Of a stretch of 64,000 bases of DNA, positions 12,807 through 20,022 are shown one piece after another (within the stretch, counting starts at the first letter, position 1; each line of letters opens with the position of its first letter). The notes under the pieces are model-generated. The model searched no databases. It was not told where the DNA came from and worked only from the letters and a program-made list of their open reading frames with translations. Made by a program: the position numbers and the translations under genes. This DNA comes from Nitrosopumilus sp. (GTDB lineage: Archaea > Thermoproteota > Nitrososphaeria > Nitrososphaerales > Nitrosopumilaceae): contig CBDBCE010000004.1 in NCBI GenBank assembly GCA_965203315.1, positions 224,001-288,000 on the forward strand. Reading direction: 5' to 3'.

Positions 12807-13144
12807 GTAAGCGGTTAGCCTGACAACGATCTTGTGGGGTTCTTTTAACTTAATGGGGGGTTAAGATTAAGTTGTAGGTATTTCGAGAAACGCACGGTAT
12901 GCAACTTAAAACAGCAATAATCTACAATGGGTGATCTAACCATTTTTCATGACTTGTAAAATTTTGAGAGAATGTTGCGTGAAAACTATCGACCCCCCCG
13001 TTAAGTTAACCATATGTGAAGAAGTCGATCAGAGTACATTCAGATGATACAAAGCATGCAGGTCGATCCAAGCGATCATCTGTAAAGCGATCTAAAAGAG
13101 GAAATGCAAACAAACAGATTACCCATCCAAAAAGTAAAAACAAG

Positions 13145-14152
13145 ATGATCTATATCGGAATAGATGCACATAAGAGATTTCTGCAAATTGCAGCAATGGA
13201 TCAGGATGGCAAGCGTCTACTCAATGAGCGTGTTGCCACAGATCATGACAGTCTAAAAAAATTCTTTGCGCAGTTTACACCACTCAATACACGTTGTGTG
13301 ATGGAGTCATCGTCAGTATGGTATTGGTTGTATAGATACTTGACAGATGAATTGGGATTTGGTGTAGTGTTATCGAATCCATATCAAACAAAGGCTATTG
13401 CAGAATCAAAGAAAAAGACAGACAAGGTGGATGCATGGACACTGGCAGATCTTTTAAGAGGAAATTATATCTCGCCTTGTTTTGTTCCTAGTGAATACAT
13501 TGTTAAATTGAAACAGTTGGTTCGACATAGAGATATAATTGTAAAAGGAAGAACGCGATACAAGAATCTTATACATGGGATATTACTGCAATATGGAATT
13601 AAAATACCTGGTTCAAGTTTTAGCAAGTCATTTAGAGAGGAATTGAAGAAACTCGAGGATTATAGAATAGATAACTATTTGGACATGATAAACCTCTCTG
13701 ACGAAAAGATTCGACAGTTGGATATTAAAATGCATAAAGAAGTAAAGAGATCACATGATGCGCAGTTGTTAAAGACAATTCCGGGAGTTGGAAACTTTGT
13801 TGCACTTGTTGTAATATCCAGCATTGGAGATGTCAAGAGATTCCCAAATGTACGCAAAATGTGTTCGTATGCAGGAATAGTGCCGTCTGTTCGCAATTCA
13901 GCTGGTAAACAAAATCACGGACGTATAACGAGGAAAGGTGATAAAATACTTAGATGGGCATTGACCGAAGCAGTTCATGTACACATAAAATGTGAACCCC
14001 ATAGCTACATTACAAAATTTTATACTAGAATTAAAAAGAGACGCGTGACAAGCAAGGCAACTGTTGCAACTGCCTCCAAGCTACTCCGATTGATGTACCA
14101 TATGCTTATAGATAGGGATGATTATGTCACACATTGTAGTCGAAATCATTAA
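13145..14152 (+). CDS. IS110-family DEDD recombinase/transposase
   Basis: IGIDAHK, MESS, KTDKVDA (DEDD), IPGVG, SYAGIVPSVRNSAG with catalytic Ser; probable start MIYIGID. Confidence 0.95.
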   Translation: MIYIGIDAHKRFLQIAAMDQDGKRLLNERVATDHDSLKKFFAQFTPLNTRCVMESSSVWYWLYRYLTDELGFGVVLSNPYQTKAIAESKKKTDKVDAWTLADLLRGNYISPCFVPSEYIVKLKQLVRHRDIIVKGRTRYKNLIHGILLQYGIKIPGSSFSKSFREELKKLEDYRIDNYLDMINLSDEKIRQLDIKMHKEVKRSHDAQLLKTIPGVGNFVALVVISSIGDVKRFPNVRKMCSYAGIVPSVRNSAGKQNHGRITRKGDKILRWALTEAVHVHIKCEPHSYITKFYTRIKKRRVTSKATVATASKLLRLMYHMLIDRDDYVTHCSRNH

Positions 14153-14345
14153 CGTACGGGTTCTGTTTGAGATATCACTCGGCAAGTTAAATGTACAGAT
14201 TTTGACGAATGGACGAAGAATGATACTGAGTTAACCACTCGAATGGATATATGTTCGCAGTCCTTTACATGGGAACACATCCCTAGCGTAAGCTATACAC
14301 AATAGTCGTGAATCAGAGTAAATCTTTATAAGCTATTCACATGGA
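14153..14345 (+). ncRNA. Putative bridge/seek RNA in the IS110 3' non-coding region
   Basis: Internal loop with GGGTTCT (14158-14164) and AAGTTAA (14184-14190) matching both halves of the target; second loop with ATGGATA (14243-14249) matching the right end. Confidence 0.7.
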
Positions 14346-14356
14346 TAAAAGAACCC

Positions 14357-14623
14357 AACGAAGCTTGTCGTAAATTCGGAGTTCATTTAGCTAATGCTGC
14401 AGATGATCTATACACGTTTGTGCTATACTATGGTATGGAATACACAAACAACAGAGCAGAGCGCGCTATACGACCAATGGTACTATTCCGCAAGGTAACT
14501 CAACGTATCGTATCTGAGGAGAGTAAAAGACGAGTTGGCAATATCTTTACATGTGTAACAACATGGGAGCAACAAGGTCTCAACGTCTATGATACACTCC
14601 TAAAAGTTGTGCATGAGACCTAA
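14357..14623 (+). pseudogene. IS66 transposase C-terminal fragment
   Basis: DLYTFV..EYTNNRAERAIRPMVLFRKVT motif. Confidence 0.85.
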
Positions 14624-14631
14624 CCTCATAC

Positions 14632-14664
14632 AAAAAATCCATCCAACGTAAATCGAAAAGATCC
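14632..14664. mobile_element. Solo right end of the IS6 parent / MITE-A
   Basis: AAAAAATCCATCCAACGTAAATCGAAAAGATCC, identical to 27392-27424. Confidence 0.85.
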
Positions 14665-14807
14665 GTATGAAACGCAGGAAAAAGCGATCTTTAGTACGTA
14701 ACATGTATAACACAAAGGGTGTAGAAGGGTCTAGAACACCTTCTACTAAGTTGTTAAGTACAACTTGTCGCCAATAGATACTAATAGATGTAGTTATATT
14801 AATTTTT

Positions 14808-14894
14808 GGGCATGTGCCAGAGCACGGTTAAATGGGACTTGTCGCCAACAAGTTGTTAAGTACTTCGTGGGTTCGAATCCCACCATGCCCACCA
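14808..14894 (+). tRNA. Non-canonical class II tRNA-like gene: GCC anticodon, long variable arm, A73, encoded CCA
   Basis: Acceptor GGGCATG/CATGCCC, T-arm GTGGG-TTCGAAT-CCCAC, anticodon stem ACTTG/CAAGT with loop TC-GCC-AA, 13-nt variable region, 3' ACCA. Confidence 0.85.
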
Positions 14895-14923
14895 AATATT
14901 CTGATTCACGTTCAGACGTCTCA

Positions 14924-15062
14924 AGACTGTATGCGTATTTCTTACATCATACTCACGTTTTAAGGTACAATAAAACACAAGCGTAATTTCTAGAGTCAAA
15001 TTGATTCATTGCTGTCATCTTTGATGTTGGTGTGGGCATTCTTAATAATATGCATACAGTCT
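14924..15062. mobile_element. MITE-B copy
   Basis: AGACTGTATGCGTATT..AATATGCATACAGTCT; flanks do not form a TSD. Confidence 0.9.
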
Positions 15063-15171
15063 ATTAGTAAAATACATAATCCCCTAATCTGACGATACAT
15101 GCAATGAGTATCTGCATAGAGTTAGAACAATATGTGAAAGAAACTAGTTGCCTACAGATGACGCGATTCGC

Positions 15172-15328
15172 TATCCATTATCCATTATCCATTATCCATT
15201 ATCCATTATCCATTATCCATTATCCATTATCCATTATCCATTATCCATTATCCATTATCCATTATCCATTATCCATTATCCATTATCCATTATCCATTAT
15301 CCATTATCCATTATCCATTATCCATTAT
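15172..15328 (+). repeat. Perfect heptanucleotide tandem repeat (TATCCAT)22
   Basis: 22 full units plus 3 bp, ending 32 bp upstream of the RM gene start. Confidence 0.95.
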
Positions 15329-15360: not shown

Positions 15361-18300
15361 ATGGGCACCTCAAAGGCATCAATCTTTGATGATGTGCTAT
15401 GTATAATACGAGCATCTGCGACTAGTACCTCTGATCTCGGTAAACGGTTCGAGAGACTGACCAAAGACTTTTTCAAGATAGATTCAATGTATAGTAGACG
15501 ATTCAGACGCGTCTATCTGTGGTCAGAGTGGCCCAAACGAGACGGCACAGACACGGGAATCGATATTGTGGCAGAACAGTTTGATGGTACACTCTGTGCT
15601 GTACAGTGCAAGTGCTATGATGACTATGCCGGTCTAGACATGAAGTCGGTTGCCAAGTTTCTGGCCAAAGCAAACTCGCTTGGTATAGAGAACAAGATTC
15701 TAGTGTATACAGGCGATACATTTACTAGTCATGCACAAAAGTTATTGCTTGATTCCAAGTGTTCCATAATAGATCAAGAACACTTTCGTAGTTCTAGTAT
15801 CGATTGGAGTGATTATCCAAAACTTGTACGAGTCAAAGATCAAAAACAGCTCAGACCTCATCAGGTATCTGCACTAAAAGACGTGATACATGGATTTCAA
15901 AAATATGATCGTGGTAAACTGATCATGGCGTGTGGTACAGGCAAGACTCTAACAGCACTGCACATTGCAGAAGAACAGGTCGGTACAGGCGGTATCGTAC
16001 TGTATGTTGTACCTTCTATCTCTCTGATACTACAGAGTATGCGAGAGTGGTCCGACAACGGTACCATACAACATAGTTACATGGCTGTATGTTCAGATAA
16101 ATCAACAGGCGAGGATGGTTCCATAACAGAACTAGAGTCACCTGTATCTACAGATCATACTACCTTGCGACCATACATTGTATCACGACCAAAAGATGCA
16201 ATGACGGTAATATTCTCTACGTATCATTCTATAGACGTTATAAAACAAGCTGCAAAAAATATACAGTTTGATCTGATACTATGTGACGAAGCTCATCGTA
16301 CAACAGGAGTAGAAGACAAGTCGTTCTTTACAGCTGTACACAAGGACACAAACATACACGGCAAGAAACGACTCTACATGACTGCTACACCTCGTGTGTA
16401 CAGCGATATTATACAAGCCAAGATGGGCAAGGTAATCTATTCTATGGATGATGAAGAGAGATATGGACCAACATTCCATAGACTGAGTTTTACAGCTGCA
16501 GTACAACAAAAGGTGCTCTCTGACTTTAGAGTCAAGATTGCAATCGTACCAGCTGATAAGATAGACGCACAGTTTCAGCAATCGGTAACAGACGAGGACC
16601 ACTCCATACCGTTAGACGAACGTACGTTACTTGCAGCTGTATGGCACGGCATACAGTATCCAGATGATAATAAAACACCAAAACTGTTACAACGTGTTAT
16701 TGCATTTGCAAATCGTATAGACCGTTCTCAAATGTTTGCAGGCGAGATAACAGACGGAAACAACATTGATCGTAGTTTTGCAAGTATCGTATCACAGTAT
16801 GAAGAAAAAAAGAACACAGGACATAAAGTCCAAGTCAAACACATGGACGGCAAGACTAGGGCAATAGAACGCAGAGACAAACTACGTTGGTTAGACGAGA
16901 GTACTGATGATCCCAACACTTGTAGAATAGTCTCTAATGCCCGATGTCTATCTGAGGGTATAGACGTACCTGCTCTGGACGGTGTAATCTTTTTAAATCC
17001 GCGCAAGTCTCGAGTCGATGTAGTCCAGTCTGTAGGTCGAGTCATGCGTAGATCAGCTGGTAAGAAATATGGCTATGTGATATTGCCGGTTGCGATCCCA
17101 GCTGGTGTAGAATACCACAAGGCACTAGACAACAACAAGACCTTTGCTGTCGTATGGCAGGTACTGAACGCACTACGATCACATGACGAGTCGTTTGGTG
17201 CCGAGATCAACAGTCTGATACTGGACAAAAACACAGAGAATACGAGTCCCACTCCTAGAATCAGTGTATCTGTTTTAGATGATACATTTGTCGAGAGTGA
17301 ACCGATTACAAAGTTCTTTGATCATGTAAAGTCTCAACTGGTCAAAAAGGTAGGAGATGTAGACTATTATGACAAGTATGGTGAAAAGATTGGTTCTGCA
17401 GCTAGTACGATACAGTCTAGAATCGAAAATCTGCTAAAGACAAATGATACCATACAACACGAGGTATCTAAATTTCATAAATCACTACAAGATCTGATAA
17501 ACGATACCATATCTGAATATGATACTGTACAGGCCCTAGCACACCACATGGTACTTGCTCCTGTATTTGATGGGCTATTTACAGGACAGTTCACATCATA
17601 CAATCCGATATCTAGAGCATTTGAAGATATCATACGTACCATGGGACTACGCGAAGAGCTCGAGATCTTGGAGGAATTTTATGATGAGGTACAGCAAGAG
17701 ATCAAGAACATCAATACCGGTACAGCAAGACAAGAGTTCATCAAGAGAATATATGGAAATTTCTTTGAATCTGCTGATAAAAAAGGAACTGAACAACACG
17801 GTATCGTATACACACCTGTACAGATCGTCGATTTTATAATACATAGTGTACAGTATATTCTCAAGAAGGAATTCAACACCGAATTTGCAGACCGACAAGT
17901 CAAAGTTCTAGACCCATTCACAGGCACAGGAACGTTCCTTGCACAACTGATAAACTCGGGATATCTGGGTGAGAACATTTATGAAAAATACAAACACGAC
18001 CTGTACGCAAATGAACTGATCCTACTAGCGTATTATGTTGCAACCGTAAACATCGAGACGGTATATTCCAGTGTACGAAACGGACACAGACATGTTCCGT
18101 TTGACGGTATCAGTTACACAGATACTCTAAAGATAAATCCACTATATCGCACAGACGAGAGACATAGAATACAACTCAAACCATTCACAGGTCAGTTCAA
18201 ACAGGCACACGAACGCGTACATGCACAACGGTGGTCTCATTTACACGTGATAATGGGGAATCCACCTTATTCTGCCAAACAAAGCAACTACAATGATCAA

Positions 18301-20022
18301 AACCAAAACATACAGTATCCTGATCTCGACAAAAGAATTGGAGATACATATCTCAAAAGAGTCAAAGAGATCAACCCAAACATTGGACTAACGACATCAC
18401 TACGAGATTCTTATCTTCGTTCACTCCGTTGGGCATCAGATAGAATCGGCGAATCAGGCATAATTGGCTTTGTAACAAACGCAGGATTTATCAGATCTGA
18501 CGCTGGTGCAGGCGTCCGCGCCTCTCTCCACGAAGAATTCACAGACATTTACTGCTTTGACCTGCGTGGAAATCAACGAACGCAGGGAGAAATATCAAAG
18601 AAAGAAGGAGGAAAAATATTCGGTTCAGGCTCGCGCGCACCAGTCGCCATCACAATACTAGTCAAAAACCCAAACAAGAAAAAACACACCATACATTACA
18701 AAGATATCGGCGACTATCTATCCAGAGAAGAAAAACTAGACACAATATCAAAATACAAATCCATCCAACATATCAAAGACTGGGATACCATCACACCCGA
18801 CAAGCACCACGACTGGGTTGGTCAACGCTCCGACGAGTTTGAACAGTACACAGCAATGGGCAACAAAGAGACCAAGGCTGGTAAAGAGGTCACTGCAATG
18901 TTCAAGTTATATTCGAGTGGTGTAAAAACACATCGCGACGTATGGGTTTACAATTCATCCAAAGAAATTTTATCAAAAAATATGAAACGAACCATTGATT
19001 ACTGCAACAAACAAGATTTGTCAAATCCCATACTTGATCCCAAATTTGTAAAATGGAGTCCAGGACTCACAGATAGATTAAATAAAACTAAACCAAAGTT
19101 TGATAATTCACAAATTCGACTTTTAGCATACAGGCCATTTTTTAAACAATATGTATATTTCGATAAAACATTCATTGAAGTACTATCACTCACTCCAAAA
19201 TTCTTCCCAGACAAAACATCTAAAAATCTAGTAATTATTGTACCATATCGACACGGAGGATTACCCTCTACATTCATAACTAATGTAGTTCCAGATTTAC
19301 AGACCATTCAAAATGATCAATGCTTTCCTTTGTACACATACGAGAATGATAAGAAAACAATCAACATTACAGATTACATATTAACACAATACCAAGATCA
19401 CTACAACGACAAGGCAATAACCAAAGAGGACATCTTTTACTATACGTATGGTCTATTACACCATGAAAAATACAAAAAGAAGTTTGCAAGCAATCTGTCC
19501 AAAGAACTACCAAGAATTCCAATGGCTCCAAACTTTCAAGCATTTGTCACAGCTGGACGCAAACTAGCAGATCTACATCTAAACTACGAGACCTGCAAAA
19601 AGTACCCACTCAAACCTAAAGCCAAATTTGGCAAGCTAGTAAAGATGGCATTCCCCAAAGTAACAAAAAACGGTAAAAAGATTCCAGACAAGACACGACT
19701 ATTCATAAACGGCATCGAAGTCTTTGACCTACCTGAAATAAAATACACAGTAAACGGCAGAACCCCAATCGAATGGATCATAGACCGATACCGCAGAACC
19801 GTAGATAAAGACAGTGGCATAGTAAATGATCCAACTGAAACAATGACTGAAGAAAAGACAATAGCAATGATTCAACGACTCGTACACGTAAGTGTCGAAT
19901 CTGACAAGATCATCAAAGAACTATCCGAAGAAGAGTTTGAACCGAAAGCGTGGAAACCGAAACCCTCTGGTCTAGATAGATACACCAACTCTAAAAACTA
20001 TCAATCAAAATTAAGAGGTTGA
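15361..20022 (+). CDS. Type ISP single-polypeptide restriction-modification enzyme (LlaGI/LlaBIII-like)
   Basis: Mrr-like nuclease (GIDIVA..AVQCK), SF2 helicase (MACGTGKT, DEAH, TATP, QSVGRVMR), N6-adenine MTase (DPFTGTG, GNPPY), C-terminal target-recognition region. Confidence 0.93.
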   Translation: MGTSKASIFDDVLCIIRASATSTSDLGKRFERLTKDFFKIDSMYSRRFRRVYLWSEWPKRDGTDTGIDIVAEQFDGTLCAVQCKCYDDYAGLDMKSVAKFLAKANSLGIENKILVYTGDTFTSHAQKLLLDSKCSIIDQEHFRSSSIDWSDYPKLVRVKDQKQLRPHQVSALKDVIHGFQKYDRGKLIMACGTGKTLTALHIAEEQVGTGGIVLYVVPSISLILQSMREWSDNGTIQHSYMAVCSDKSTGEDGSITELESPVSTDHTTLRPYIVSRPKDAMTVIFSTYHSIDVIKQAAKNIQFDLILCDEAHRTTGVEDKSFFTAVHKDTNIHGKKRLYMTATPRVYSDIIQAKMGKVIYSMDDEERYGPTFHRLSFTAAVQQKVLSDFRVKIAIVPADKIDAQFQQSVTDEDHSIPLDERTLLAAVWHGIQYPDDNKTPKLLQRVIAFANRIDRSQMFAGEITDGNNIDRSFASIVSQYEEKKNTGHKVQVKHMDGKTRAIERRDKLRWLDESTDDPNTCRIVSNARCLSEGIDVPALDGVIFLNPRKSRVDVVQSVGRVMRRSAGKKYGYVILPVAIPAGVEYHKALDNNKTFAVVWQVLNALRSHDESFGAEINSLILDKNTENTSPTPRISVSVLDDTFVESEPITKFFDHVKSQLVKKVGDVDYYDKYGEKIGSAASTIQSRIENLLKTNDTIQHEVSKFHKSLQDLINDTISEYDTVQALAHHMVLAPVFDGLFTGQFTSYNPISRAFEDIIRTMGLREELEILEEFYDEVQQEIKNINTGTARQEFIKRIYGNFFESADKKGTEQHGIVYTPVQIVDFIIHSVQYILKKEFNTEFADRQVKVLDPFTGTGTFLAQLINSGYLGENIYEKYKHDLYANELILLAYYVATVNIETVYSSVRNGHRHVPFDGISYTDTLKINPLYRTDERHRIQLKPFTGQFKQAHERVHAQRWSHLHVIMGNPPYSAKQSNYNDQNQNIQYPDLDKRIGDTYLKRVKEINPNIGLTTSLRDSYLRSLRWASDRIGESGIIGFVTNAGFIRSDAGAGVRASLHEEFTDIYCFDLRGNQRTQGEISKKEGGKIFGSGSRAPVAITILVKNPNKKKHTIHYKDIGDYLSREEKLDTISKYKSIQHIKDWDTITPDKHHDWVGQRSDEFEQYTAMGNKETKAGKEVTAMFKLYSSGVKTHRDVWVYNSSKEILSKNMKRTIDYCNKQDLSNPILDPKFVKWSPGLTDRLNKTKPKFDNSQIRLLAYRPFFKQYVYFDKTFIEVLSLTPKFFPDKTSKNLVIIVPYRHGGLPSTFITNVVPDLQTIQNDQCFPLYTYENDKKTINITDYILTQYQDHYNDKAITKEDIFYYTYGLLHHEKYKKKFASNLSKELPRIPMAPNFQAFVTAGRKLADLHLNYETCKKYPLKPKAKFGKLVKMAFPKVTKNGKKIPDKTRLFINGIEVFDLPEIKYTVNGRTPIEWIIDRYRRTVDKDSGIVNDPTETMTEEKTIAMIQRLVHVSVESDKIIKELSEEEFEPKAWKPKPSGLDRYTNSKNYQSKLRG

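What the first reader, a model, noticed from the sequence alone, without database searches (positions are those of the whole stretch)
14808..14894. Chimeric tRNA: class II (Leu or bacterial Tyr-like) body with Gly anticodon GCC and C33
Seen: perfect acceptor, T and anticodon stems, encoded CCA, A73, 13-nt variable region, D-loop AGCACGGTTAAA, anticodon loop TC-GCC-AA. Established: tRNA-Gly is class I with a short variable loop, U33 is almost invariant, and archaeal LeuRS relies on A73 and the long variable arm rather than the anticodon. Inference: either a missense tRNA inserting a non-Gly residue at GGC/GGU, or a non-ribosomal tRNA (aminoacyl donor, or decoy for PIN/HEPN anticodon nucleases encoded nearby). 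Intact stems argue against simple decay. It lies in a defence-type island ahead of the Type ISP gene.
Basis: partly seen in the sequence, partly recalled or inferred. Interest (0 to 1): 0.8.

Follow-up and report, generated by a model that had tools for sequence, protein, structure and literature searches.

The report
Mismatched tRNA-like gene with self-matching leader
A well-formed leucine-type tRNA gene with a glycine anticodon is really there, but it is the best-kept copy of a strain-specific repeated unit whose upstream leader carries copies of the tRNA's own two loops, so it looks like an accessory RNA module and not a normal decoder.

Summary
Window 14808-14894 (+) is an 87-nt class II cloverleaf with perfect acceptor, anticodon and T stems, loop UCGCCAA (GCC, C33), A73 and an encoded CCA. 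Its nearest normal relatives are the host tRNA-Leu genes.

It is not a lone chimera. The genome, from an ammonia-oxidising archaeon rich in IS elements and MITEs, holds seven related tRNA-like copies. Most are degenerate. Their loops are GNC-type (GCC once, GUC three times) with C, U or A at position 33.

Stems are kept by compensatory changes: 7 of 20 pairs changed on both sides.

Each better-kept copy has, just 5' of its promoter-like box, exact copies of its own anticodon loop and variable loop. These copies co-vary locus by locus. A single-copy 88-nt class II 'tRNA-Phe' shows a similar self-matching leader.

The family was not found in the 40 relatives or 150 same-genus genomes searched, nor by the exact-pattern scans of viral, metagenome and genome collections.

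Best reading (0.4): an accessory two-part RNA module, an anticodon-mismatched Leu-type tRNA coupled to a cognate leader-encoded RNA. Expression and charging are untested.

The parts
14808..14894 (+). T1: 87-nt class II (Leu-type) tRNA-like gene; anticodon loop TCGCCAA at 14842-14848 (GCC at 14844-14846, C33); A73; CCA at 14892-14894
   Evidence: ARAGORN; Rfam tRNA 48.1 bits; stem pairs listed; nearest normal tRNAs are tRNA-Leu
14837..14848 (+). X: 5' strand of the anticodon stem plus the anticodon loop of T1 (ACTTGTCGCCAA)
   Evidence: Exact 12-mer repeated at 14763-14774
14850..14863 (+). Y: 3' strand of the anticodon stem plus the variable loop of T1 (AAGTTGTTAAGTAC)
   Evidence: Exact 14-mer repeated at 14748-14761; these are the only two copies in the genome
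14656..14807 (+). U1: leader element, one of 7 copies in the genome; it ends exactly where T1 begins
   Evidence: nhmmer gives 7 hits at E <= 3e-32; alignments
14721..14746 (+). Leader hairpin 1 (GTAGAAGG ... CCTTCTAC)
   Evidence: Folds; the RNAalifold consensus has 7 pairs and no compensatory change
14748..14774 (+). Leader block Y'-A-X': copies of T1's Y then X in swapped order; forms hairpin 2 (AAGTTG/CAACTT) with the variable-loop copy as its loop and the anticodon-loop copy as a 3' tail
14778..14785 (+). ATACTAAT box at -30..-23 from T1, a candidate TATA box for T1; conserved in the leaders of both subfamilies
   Evidence: Normal tRNA genes of this genome have a TATA-like box at about -34..-24; leader alignments. 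Promoter function is inferred, not shown.
14794..14802 (.). Second AT box, TTATATTAA, at -14..-6; too close to serve T1. It could be a TATA box for a minus-strand RNA starting at about 14771, inside X'.
   Evidence: Sequence and spacing only; inferred
14895..14921 (+). 3' flank shared with copy T2 (82% identity over 57 nt that reach back into the T arm)

Best explanation
T1 is the best-preserved member of a strain-specific, duplicated two-part RNA module. Part one is a tRNA-Leu-derived class II tRNA-like gene with its own tRNA-type promoter box. Its anticodon loop belongs to a family series G34-N35-C36-A37-A38 and is not a Gly-decoding adaptation. Part two is a leader of about 150 nt. Just 5' of that promoter box it carries exact copies of the two exposed loops of its own tRNA-like RNA, the anticodon loop and the variable loop.

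Shown: the fold; the Leu-type ancestry; family membership; compensatory maintenance of the cloverleaf; the locus-by-locus match of leader and tRNA-like gene; and that the family was not found in the relatives searched.

Inferred: T1 is transcribed and 5'-processed, and it keeps what archaeal LeuRS is reported to read (A73, a long variable arm with the UAAG loop). It would therefore be an anticodon-mismatched Leu-tRNA like the nematode nev-tRNAs. The leader supplies a cognate RNA, most simply an antisense transcript. Its 5' tail would pair with the anticodon loop and its hairpin loop with the variable loop, binding or silencing its own tRNA-like RNA. The unit would then behave as an accessory or selfish element in IS-rich variable islands, not as part of the core decoding set.
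For: Fold and score.

Leu ancestry: the nhmmer profile of the family next hits four host tRNA-Leu genes; 62 of 87 identity to tRNA-Leu(UAG); shared variable-loop UAAG, T arm, A73 and CCA. H. volcanii LeuRS uses A73 plus the long variable arm, not the anticodon (PMC9976931, passages).

Family: 7 leader copies (U), 3 leaders of a second subfamily and 7 tRNA-like copies. ARAGORN of the 7 as tRNA (T1 and T2). Rfam gives T1 48.1 bits and T2 31.9 bits.

Structural constraint: on T1, T2 and T4, 57 of 60 cells are paired and 7 of 20 pairs changed on both sides. Only 3 of 500 shuffles reach these values. Slid controls give 35-43% paired and 0-2 double changes (pairs listed).

Leader coupling: exact self-copies of 12 and 14 nt (T1), 11 and 10 nt (T2), 11 nt (T4) and 11 nt (T5). 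Each leader matches its own copy best. The loops differ between loci (TCGCCAA, TCGTCAA, CAGTCAA, CTGTCAA). X'-to-X spacing is 72-75 nt. In subfamily 2 the stems differ while the loops are identical.

Control: among 46 ARAGORN tRNA calls, the longest self-match with the 150 nt upstream is 14 (T1), 12 (the 88-nt 'Phe'), 11 (T2) and 9 (tRNA-Met), and 8 or less for the other 42.

Promoter-like box at the same distance as in normal tRNA genes. Minus-strand leader RNAs fold into a 5' single-stranded tail plus hairpins in 4 of 4 units.

Precedents: nev-tRNAs; irregular and allo-tRNAs near toxin-antitoxin genes and transposons, some toxic when expressed (PMC5389517, passages).
Against: There is no expression, processing or charging evidence of any kind.

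Five of the 7 tRNA-like copies are truncated or degenerate, and 4 of the 7 U leaders have no tRNA-like gene directly behind them. That pattern also fits neutral decay.

The plus-strand leader consensus shows no compensatory pairs. Only 2 of the 4 minus-strand folds have clearly low z-scores (-3.2 and -2.9, against -1.0 and -1.3).

The antisense promoter is inferred from an AT box alone, and in T5 it is weak.

The variable-arm stem of T1 has only 2 bp, so Leu identity is uncertain. T2 and T4 have other variable arms and no CCA.

The covariation test rests on three sequences, and the structure was derived from one of them.

Short-tract gene conversion could produce the leader match without any function.
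Confidence: 0.4

Rival explanations
1. Neutral repeat, or pseudogene family. A tRNA-Leu-derived sequence was copied around an IS/MITE-rich genome together with its flank. T1 is simply the youngest copy. The leader match reflects local duplication and short-tract gene conversion, with no RNA function.
For: Five of 7 copies are degenerate or truncated. The family was not found in 40 relatives or 150 same-genus genomes. T1 sits among nested IS fragments and a MITE. The anticodon varies within the family.
Against: There are compensatory changes in the acceptor, D and anticodon stems between T1, T2 and T4. The same substitutions appear in leader and tRNA-like loops at four loci, with sharply bounded identity blocks of 10-14 nt that skip the stems in subfamily 2. 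An unrelated single-copy class II 'tRNA-Phe' has the same kind of leader.
Confidence: 0.25
2. Plain missense tRNA of the nev-tRNA type. T1 is expressed, charged with leucine and reads GGC/GGU at a low level. The leader is only a promoter region.
For: A73, CCA, the UAAG variable loop and intact stems. Archaeal LeuRS ignores the anticodon. nev-tRNA-Gly decodes Gly codons as Leu in vitro. C33 is carried by the conserved tRNA-Val(GAC) of this genus, so it need not block decoding. The 88-nt class II 'tRNA-Phe' (GAA, U33, G73) elsewhere in the genome is a second candidate.
Against: A normal tRNA-Gly(GCC) exists at C5:74451-74526. The anticodon is not conserved in the family. T1 was not found in relatives. 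This reading does not explain why the leader copies the loops. The variable stem is weak.
Confidence: 0.12
3. Integration scar. The partial copies upstream are att-type repeats left by mobile elements that integrated into a tRNA-like target.
For: Thaumarchaeal integrated elements often target tRNA genes and have short att sites, median 17 bp (PMC6563490, passages). The identity blocks are short and sharply bounded. The locus lies in a variable island.
Against: Only two weak tyrosine-recombinase hits exist in the genome, both far from all nine loci, and there is no SSV-type integrase. No element lies between the repeats, which are 72-104 nt apart. The swapped order Y'-X' ... X-Y is not what one integration gives. 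The same architecture recurs with different sequences at four loci.
Confidence: 0.07
4. Decoy or substrate mimic for a tRNA-targeting nuclease or toxin of a defence system.
For: Several family loci lie near defence or toxin-antitoxin genes: Type ISP (twice), an MmeI-type enzyme, a PLD-SNF2 helicase and ParE.
Against: There is no PIN (PF01850) hit in the window and no HEPN (PF05168) hit in the genome. The neighbours differ from locus to locus. A protein partner cannot explain loops that differ at each locus.
Confidence: 0.06

Closest known systems
[quoted passage not shown]
   Same: A class II tRNA derived from tRNA-Leu that carries an anticodon of a class I amino acid, Gly among them. In nematodes these are charged only with leucine and can decode Gly codons as Leu in vitro.
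   Different: nev-tRNAs are conserved across nematodes, and their expression and charging are shown. T1 is archaeal, was found in one genome only, has C33, belongs to a dispersed and partly decayed repeat family, and has a leader that copies its loops. Nothing is shown about its expression.
allo-tRNAs and irregular tRNAs near toxin-antitoxin genes (PMC5389517, passages seen)
   Same: tRNAs with long variable arms whose anticodons do not fit their identity. They are often near toxin-antitoxin or transposon genes. Many are inactive or pseudogene-like, and some are toxic when expressed.
   Different: allo-tRNAs are defined by an 8/4 or 9/3 acceptor/T arrangement, have Ser identity and are bacterial. 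T1 is 7/5, Leu-like and archaeal. I read no mention of a self-matching leader in the passages seen.
cis-encoded antisense RNA regulators (type I toxin-antitoxin and plasmid copy-control RNAs; recalled, no call)
   Same: This is a 'works like' comparison only. It involves a hairpin loop plus a single-stranded tail complementary to exposed loops of a structured target RNA encoded next to it.
   Different: Here the target would be a tRNA-like RNA and not an mRNA. The regulator is encoded upstream and not overlapping. The two complementary blocks are in swapped order. The antisense transcript is hypothetical.
tRNA gene fragments left by integrating elements (PMC9897764, search listing and start of abstract only; PMC6563490, passages)
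   Same: Partial tRNA-like sequence lies next to a full tRNA-like gene in a mobile-element-rich region.
   Different: T1 is full length. The partial copies lie within 110 nt, are in swapped order and co-vary with the gene. No integrase or inserted element is present.

Membership tests
tRNA (Rfam RF00005) | Cloverleaf that scores at or above the gathering score | tested here: met
   48.1 bits against 29; ARAGORN call
Decoding tRNA-Gly | Class I body with a short variable loop | tested here: not met
   13-nt variable region. The normal tRNA-Gly(GCC) of 76 nt is at C5:74451-74526.
Decoding tRNA-Gly | U33 | tested here: not met
   C33. Caveat: the tRNA-Val(GAC) of this genus also has C33.
Core tRNA set of the lineage | Present in related genomes | tested here: not met
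   In 40 relatives only the T arm matches. 0 of 150 same-genus genomes match the T2 unit, with only 4 candidates scored per genome.
Archaeal tRNA-Leu | A73 discriminator | tested here: met
   the rule comes from PMC9976931 passages
Archaeal tRNA-Leu | Long variable arm with the Leu-type loop and a U at its 3' base | tested here: inconclusive
   The UAAG loop and UUC base are as in host tRNA-Leu, but only 2 bp of stem can form
Archaeal tRNA-Leu | Leu anticodon | tested here: not met
   GCC
Archaeal tRNA-Leu | Charged by LeuRS | not testable with these tools
   Needs an aminoacylation assay
nev-tRNA-like mismatched class II tRNA | Derived from tRNA-Leu, with the anticodon of a class I amino acid | tested here: met
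nev-tRNA-like mismatched class II tRNA | Expressed, leucylated, used by ribosomes | not testable with these tools
allo-tRNA | 8/4 or 9/3 acceptor/T stems | tested here: not met
   7/5
att scar of an integrated element | Integrase and an inserted element between the direct repeats | tested here: not met
   the repeats are 72-104 nt apart
Retro-copied tRNA-derived repeat (SINE-like) | A reverse transcriptase in the genome | tested here: not met
   No PF00078 hit
IS200/IS605-type hairpin element | Y1 transposase or TnpB in the genome | tested here: not met
Antisense-regulated RNA pair | The leader minus strand is complementary to both exposed loops of its own tRNA-like RNA | tested here: met
   This follows from the exact sense copies; folds
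Antisense-regulated RNA pair | The antisense transcript exists and binds | not testable with these tools
   Needs strand-specific RNA data and binding assays

The most novel reading that the evidence does not exclude
The unit is an RNA-only addiction or control module. The mismatched class II tRNA (Leu body with a Gly or Asp anticodon; elsewhere a Ser-like body with a Phe anticodon) would be a toxic mistranslating RNA. The leader would encode a cognate antisense RNA that clamps the tRNA's anticodon loop and variable loop. That would explain the locus-specific co-variation, the mismatch of body and anticodon, the orphan leaders, the decayed copies and the location in variable islands.
Probability: 0.12. 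Interest if true: 0.9.

Novelty: new variant of a known kind. Interest (0 to 1): 0.6.

Why it matters
Class II tRNAs whose anticodon does not fit their body are known from nematodes and from bacterial metagenomes, and their role is still open. This genome offers an archaeal set: T1, T2 and the 88-nt 'tRNA-Phe'. It adds a new, testable feature. Each gene carries copies of its own two exposed loops next to its promoter, and those copies change together with the gene. If that coupling is functional, it points to a way cells or selfish elements could keep a potentially mistranslating tRNA under RNA control. If it is not, it is a clean case of very short-range concerted evolution in an archaeal genome. 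It also warns annotators that the 'tRNA-Gly', 'tRNA-Asp' and second 'tRNA-Phe' calls in this genome are not ordinary isoacceptors.

Tried and rejected
Mis-parsed intron-containing tRNA: ARAGORN with introns gives the same gene. My search for bulge-helix-bulge motifs over 14680-14910 gave 6 weak candidates. The best one rests on the palindrome AGTACT that lies within the repeated Y block. Rejected.

Integrase or att origin: PF00589 gives 2 hits, both far away; PF16795 gives none.

Retro-copy: no reverse transcriptase.

IS200/IS605-type hairpin element: no Y1 transposase and no TnpB.

IS110 bridge-RNA or target idea: IS110 transposase genes lie 420-450 nt upstream of T1 and T5. However, the flanks of about 10 copies give a target GACCT | ATATCTTAC that is unrelated to the unit. 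Rejected.

Plus-strand leader as a conserved structured RNA: the consensus has 7 pairs and no compensatory change. Not supported.

Third-party targets of the copied blocks: the only extra hit outside the family is one 12-mer inside a coding-looking stretch at C1:1640490. I read it as chance.

Small peptides: 7 ORFs of 20-73 aa overlap the unit, none convincing.

Relatives elsewhere:
- A 19-mer of the leader scanned in genome contigs gave 7 unrelated hits: 6 bacterial and 1 Methanotrichaceae.
- The D-arm...T-arm pattern gave 2 viral and 2 metagenome hits. Three are ordinary tRNA-Ser or tRNA-Leu genes in tRNA arrays. The fourth (L034) is a lone 89-nt gene that ARAGORN calls tRNA-Val(tac), which I did not inspect.
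- Three further viral scans gave 0, 0 and 1 hit; the single hit is a chance match in coding sequence.

General rule 'own anticodon loop copied at the BRE position': 4 of 39 tRNA genes have a 7 of 7 copy at -42..-40, against 0.3% of cross pairs. The tRNA-Met copy is conserved in 12 of 13 relatives' loci. The tRNA-Thr copy is private to this genome; relatives show 4-6 of 7. The shared part overlaps a BRE-like RTAACA. I do not claim a rule.

PIN or HEPN nearby: not found.

RNA evidence: no RNA holder was listed. When contigs were laid, only X1 covered T1; in X2-X4 the part 14792-14930 had no cover, which says nothing either way.

The tables of PMC6563490 that list integrated elements, and the supplements of PMC5389517 and PMC3333845, could bear on precedents and I did not see them.

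Searches for earlier descriptions were. In their listings I saw no paper on mismatched class II tRNAs in ammonia-oxidising archaea or on leaders that copy tRNA loops. That is a limited search.

Full report
THE OBSERVATION

The window has exactly one tRNA call, at 14808-14894 on the + strand: 87 nt, anticodon GCC (ARAGORN). The call is unchanged when introns are allowed. Rfam's tRNA model scores it 48.1 bits against a gathering score of 29, E 3.3e-7. It is the only Rfam match at gathering level in the 64 kb.

Read from the sequence:
- acceptor GGGCATG/CATGCCC, T stem GTGGG/CCCAC and anticodon stem ACTTG/CAAGT are all Watson-Crick;
- the loop is U-C-GCC-A-A, so position 33 is C;
- the variable region has 13 nt;
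- the discriminator is A73, and CCA is encoded.

THE ORGANISM AND ITS tRNA SET

The window is C5:224001-288000 of a 2.47-Mb, 39% G+C genome in 7 contigs. The genome has an archaeal amoA and no mcrA, and many tRNA genes have introns. It is therefore an ammonia-oxidising archaeon.

A normal 76-nt tRNA-Gly(GCC) lies at C5:74451-74526. The closest normal tRNAs to the finding are the host tRNA-Leu genes: 62 of 87 identical to tRNA-Leu(UAG). They are also the next hits of an nhmmer profile of the family. The finding shares with them the UAAG variable loop, the UUC at its 3' base, the T arm, A73 and an encoded CCA. Only 2 bp of variable stem can form.

[quoted passage not shown] The 'Leu body, Gly anticodon' description is therefore fair.

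IT IS ONE OF A FAMILY

The roughly 150 nt upstream of the gene (U, about 14656-14807) occur 7 times in the genome at 75-96% identity (nhmmer E <= 3e-32). In 3 of the 7 a tRNA-like sequence follows directly.

A profile of the tRNA-like part finds 7 copies, T1 to T7:
- T1, the finding, is intact.
- T2 (C1:1671758-1671844, minus strand) is called 'tRNA-Asp GUC' by ARAGORN and scores 31.9 bits in Rfam. It has loop UCGUCAA, one acceptor mismatch, A73 and no CCA.
- T4 has loop CAGUCAA and one broken T-stem pair.
- T5 has loop CUGUCAA and is cut off in the T loop.
- T3 shares its 5' half with T1, but its 3' half is unrelated.
- T6 and T7 are degenerate.

T2, T5 and T7 have a second type of leader, present in 3 copies. 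It has the same layout as U.

The family trait is thus G34-N35-C36-A37-A38 with C, U or A at position 33. 'Gly' is the state of one copy.

DISTRIBUTION

In 40 related genomes only the T arm matches. None of 150 same-genus genomes matches the T2 unit at E <= 1e-5, with only 4 candidates scored per genome. Pattern scans of genome, viral and metagenome collections gave only chance hits or unrelated tRNA genes, mostly ordinary tRNA-Ser or tRNA-Leu genes in tRNA arrays.

THE FOLD IS CONSERVED, NOT MERELY INHERITED

I placed the cloverleaf of T1 on an alignment of T1, T2 and T4. In that test 57 of 60 cells form standard pairs, and 7 of 20 pairs have changed on both sides: 3 in the acceptor stem, 1 in the D stem and 3 in the anticodon stem. 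Only 3 of 500 shuffles reach these values. Sliding the 3' partners gives 35-43% paired and 0-2 double changes (pairs listed).

There are only three sequences, and the structure came from one of them, so this is suggestive and not proof. It still argues that these copies diverged under a constraint on the tRNA-like fold.

THE LEADER COPIES THE LOOPS

Upstream of T1, at 14748-14761 and 14763-14774, lie exact copies of 14 nt and 12 nt of T1 itself. The 14-mer (Y) is the 3' strand of the anticodon stem plus the variable loop. The 12-mer (X) is the 5' strand of that stem plus the anticodon loop. In the leader their order is swapped: Y' comes before X'. They form a hairpin whose loop is the variable-loop copy, and the anticodon-loop copy hangs off as a 3' tail.

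The same holds at other loci with other sequences:
- T2: blocks of 11 and 10 nt.
- T4: 11 nt, plus 12 of 15.
- T5: 11 nt, plus 9 of 10.

Each leader matches its own tRNA-like copy best. The spacing from X' to X is 72-75 nt. In the second subfamily the stem of the leader hairpin differs from the anticodon stem while the loops are identical, so it is the two exposed loops that are copied. In the degenerate copies T3 and T7 the match has decayed.

As a control I measured, for all 46 ARAGORN tRNA calls of the genome, the longest exact match between each gene and its own 150 nt upstream. It is 14 (T1), 12 (an 88-nt 'tRNA-Phe'), 11 (T2) and 9 (tRNA-Met), and 8 or less for the other 42.

The 88-nt 'tRNA-Phe' (C1:1424342-1424429) is single-copy and was not found in 40 relatives. 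It is also a class II body with a class I anticodon: GAA, U33, G73, a perfect acceptor stem and a 4-bp variable stem. It carries 12-nt and 8-nt copies of itself upstream. The phenomenon is therefore not limited to one repeat family.

PROMOTERS (INFERENCE)

Normal tRNA genes here have a TATA-like box at about -34..-24. All leaders have a conserved ATACTAAT-like box in that place, at 14778-14785 in the window. X' ends just 5' of it.

A second AT box (14794-14802) lies too close to serve T1. Read on the minus strand, it would start an RNA at about 14771, inside X'. Such an RNA would have a single-stranded 5' tail complementary to the anticodon loop of T1 and a hairpin loop complementary to its variable loop. 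All four minus-strand leaders fold that way, with z-scores of -3.2, -2.9, -1.0 and -1.3. This is the simplest device I can think of that needs the leader to track both loops of its own gene. It remains a hypothesis.

SURROUNDINGS

T1 lies in a patchwork of mobile and repeated DNA:
- an IS110-family element, about 12837-14355 (transposase ORF 13016-14152);
- a fragment of a 12-copy IS (14356-14631);
- a 33-nt end of another IS (14632-14664);
- then U1 and T1;
- a MITE of about 140 nt (14924-15064; 60 or more copies);
- a perfect (TATCCAT)x22.4 array (15172-15328);
- a 1553-aa Type ISP restriction-modification gene (15361-20022).

The other family loci have varied neighbours: a second, IS-disrupted Type ISP copy, an MmeI-type enzyme, a PLD-SNF2 helicase, ParE and UPF0175 proteins, serpin and subtilase genes, and also plain metabolic genes. 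No gene is shared by all loci.

PIN (PF01850) has 4 hits in the genome and none in the window. HEPN (PF05168) has none.

C33

In this genus, however, the canonical tRNA-Val(GAC) has loop UCGACAC. A pattern that allowed C or T at position 33 matched 11 places in 10 of 41 genomes (this one and 9 of 24 of the same genus), and all 11 carry C. C33 before G34 is therefore tolerated in this lineage, and it does not by itself exclude decoding.

WHAT IT MOST LIKELY IS

I commit, at 0.4, to an accessory two-part RNA module. One part is a tRNA-Leu-derived, anticodon-mismatched class II tRNA, the archaeal counterpart of nematode nev-tRNAs (PMC3333845, abstract) and of the irregular tRNAs found near toxin-antitoxin genes and transposons (PMC5389517, passages). 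The other part is a leader that encodes a cognate RNA recognising its two exposed loops.

The rivals are:
- neutral repeat decay with short-tract gene conversion (0.25);
- a plain low-level missense tRNA (0.12);
- integration scars (0.07);
- a nuclease decoy (0.06).

Under 'tried and rejected' I list the intron, integrase, reverse-transcriptase, IS200/IS605 and IS110 ideas that the data did not bear out.

NOVELTY

Mismatched class II tRNAs are known, and I file T1 as a new variant of that kind. I did not find the loop-copying, co-varying leader described in the listings of five literature searches, which is a limited check.

Noticed in passing
G000 C1:1424342-1424429 (+) = L036:4001-4088: An 88-nt class II 'tRNA-Phe' (GAA, U33, G73, perfect 7-bp acceptor stem, 4-bp variable stem) exists beside a normal 75-nt tRNA-Phe. 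It is single-copy, flanked by MITEs, and was not found in 40 relatives. It carries 12-nt and 8-nt copies of its own variable arm and 3' anticodon stem upstream. It is a Ser-like body with a Phe anticodon.
   Followed up: partly
G000 C1:1352350-1352424: The canonical tRNA-Val(GAC) has anticodon loop UCGACAC, that is C33. The same 15-mer with C was found in 9 of 24 same-genus genomes and never with T; 0 of 16 genomes from other genera matched the pattern at all.
   Followed up: partly
window 15172-15328: A perfect tandem array (TATCCAT) x 22.4 ends 33 nt before the Type ISP start codon at 15361. The same array lies next to the second, IS-disrupted Type ISP copy near C1:243 kb. It is a candidate simple-repeat switch for a restriction-modification gene.
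   Followed up: no
G000 C5:42375-42449 and loci L042-L053: Upstream of tRNA-Met, the sequence CTCATAAC (equal to its own anticodon loop) sits directly 5' of the TATA box ATTTTATACC. It is kept in 12 of 13 relatives' loci, and in the relatives an inverted partner GTTATGA lies further upstream. It may be a BRE or operator and the match may be chance.
   Followed up: partly
G000 C1:170832-170909 (-) = within L037: A 78-nt tRNA-like gene has an 8-nt anticodon loop (ARAGORN 'tcgt') and an encoded CCA. Its 80-nt leader holds several 6-8-nt pieces of the gene in scrambled order.
   Followed up: no
window about 12837-14355 (transposase ORF 13016-14152): An IS110-family element is present in about 10 copies. 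Their flanks give an insertion site GACCT | ATATCTTAC. About 200 nt of non-coding DNA after the transposase could hold its guide RNA; I did not examine this.
   Followed up: partly
G000 C1:382705-382853 (U5) = L014:6853-7001: This is an orphan leader copy with no tRNA-like gene behind it. It lies directly 5' of a DUF7557 plus ParE-toxin gene pair. Its anticodon-loop block is identical to that of T1.
   Followed up: no
G000 C5:163332-163425: A 94-nt tRNA-Val(CAC) has about 20 extra nt between the anticodon arm and the T arm. This is probably an intron at a non-canonical position.
   Followed up: no
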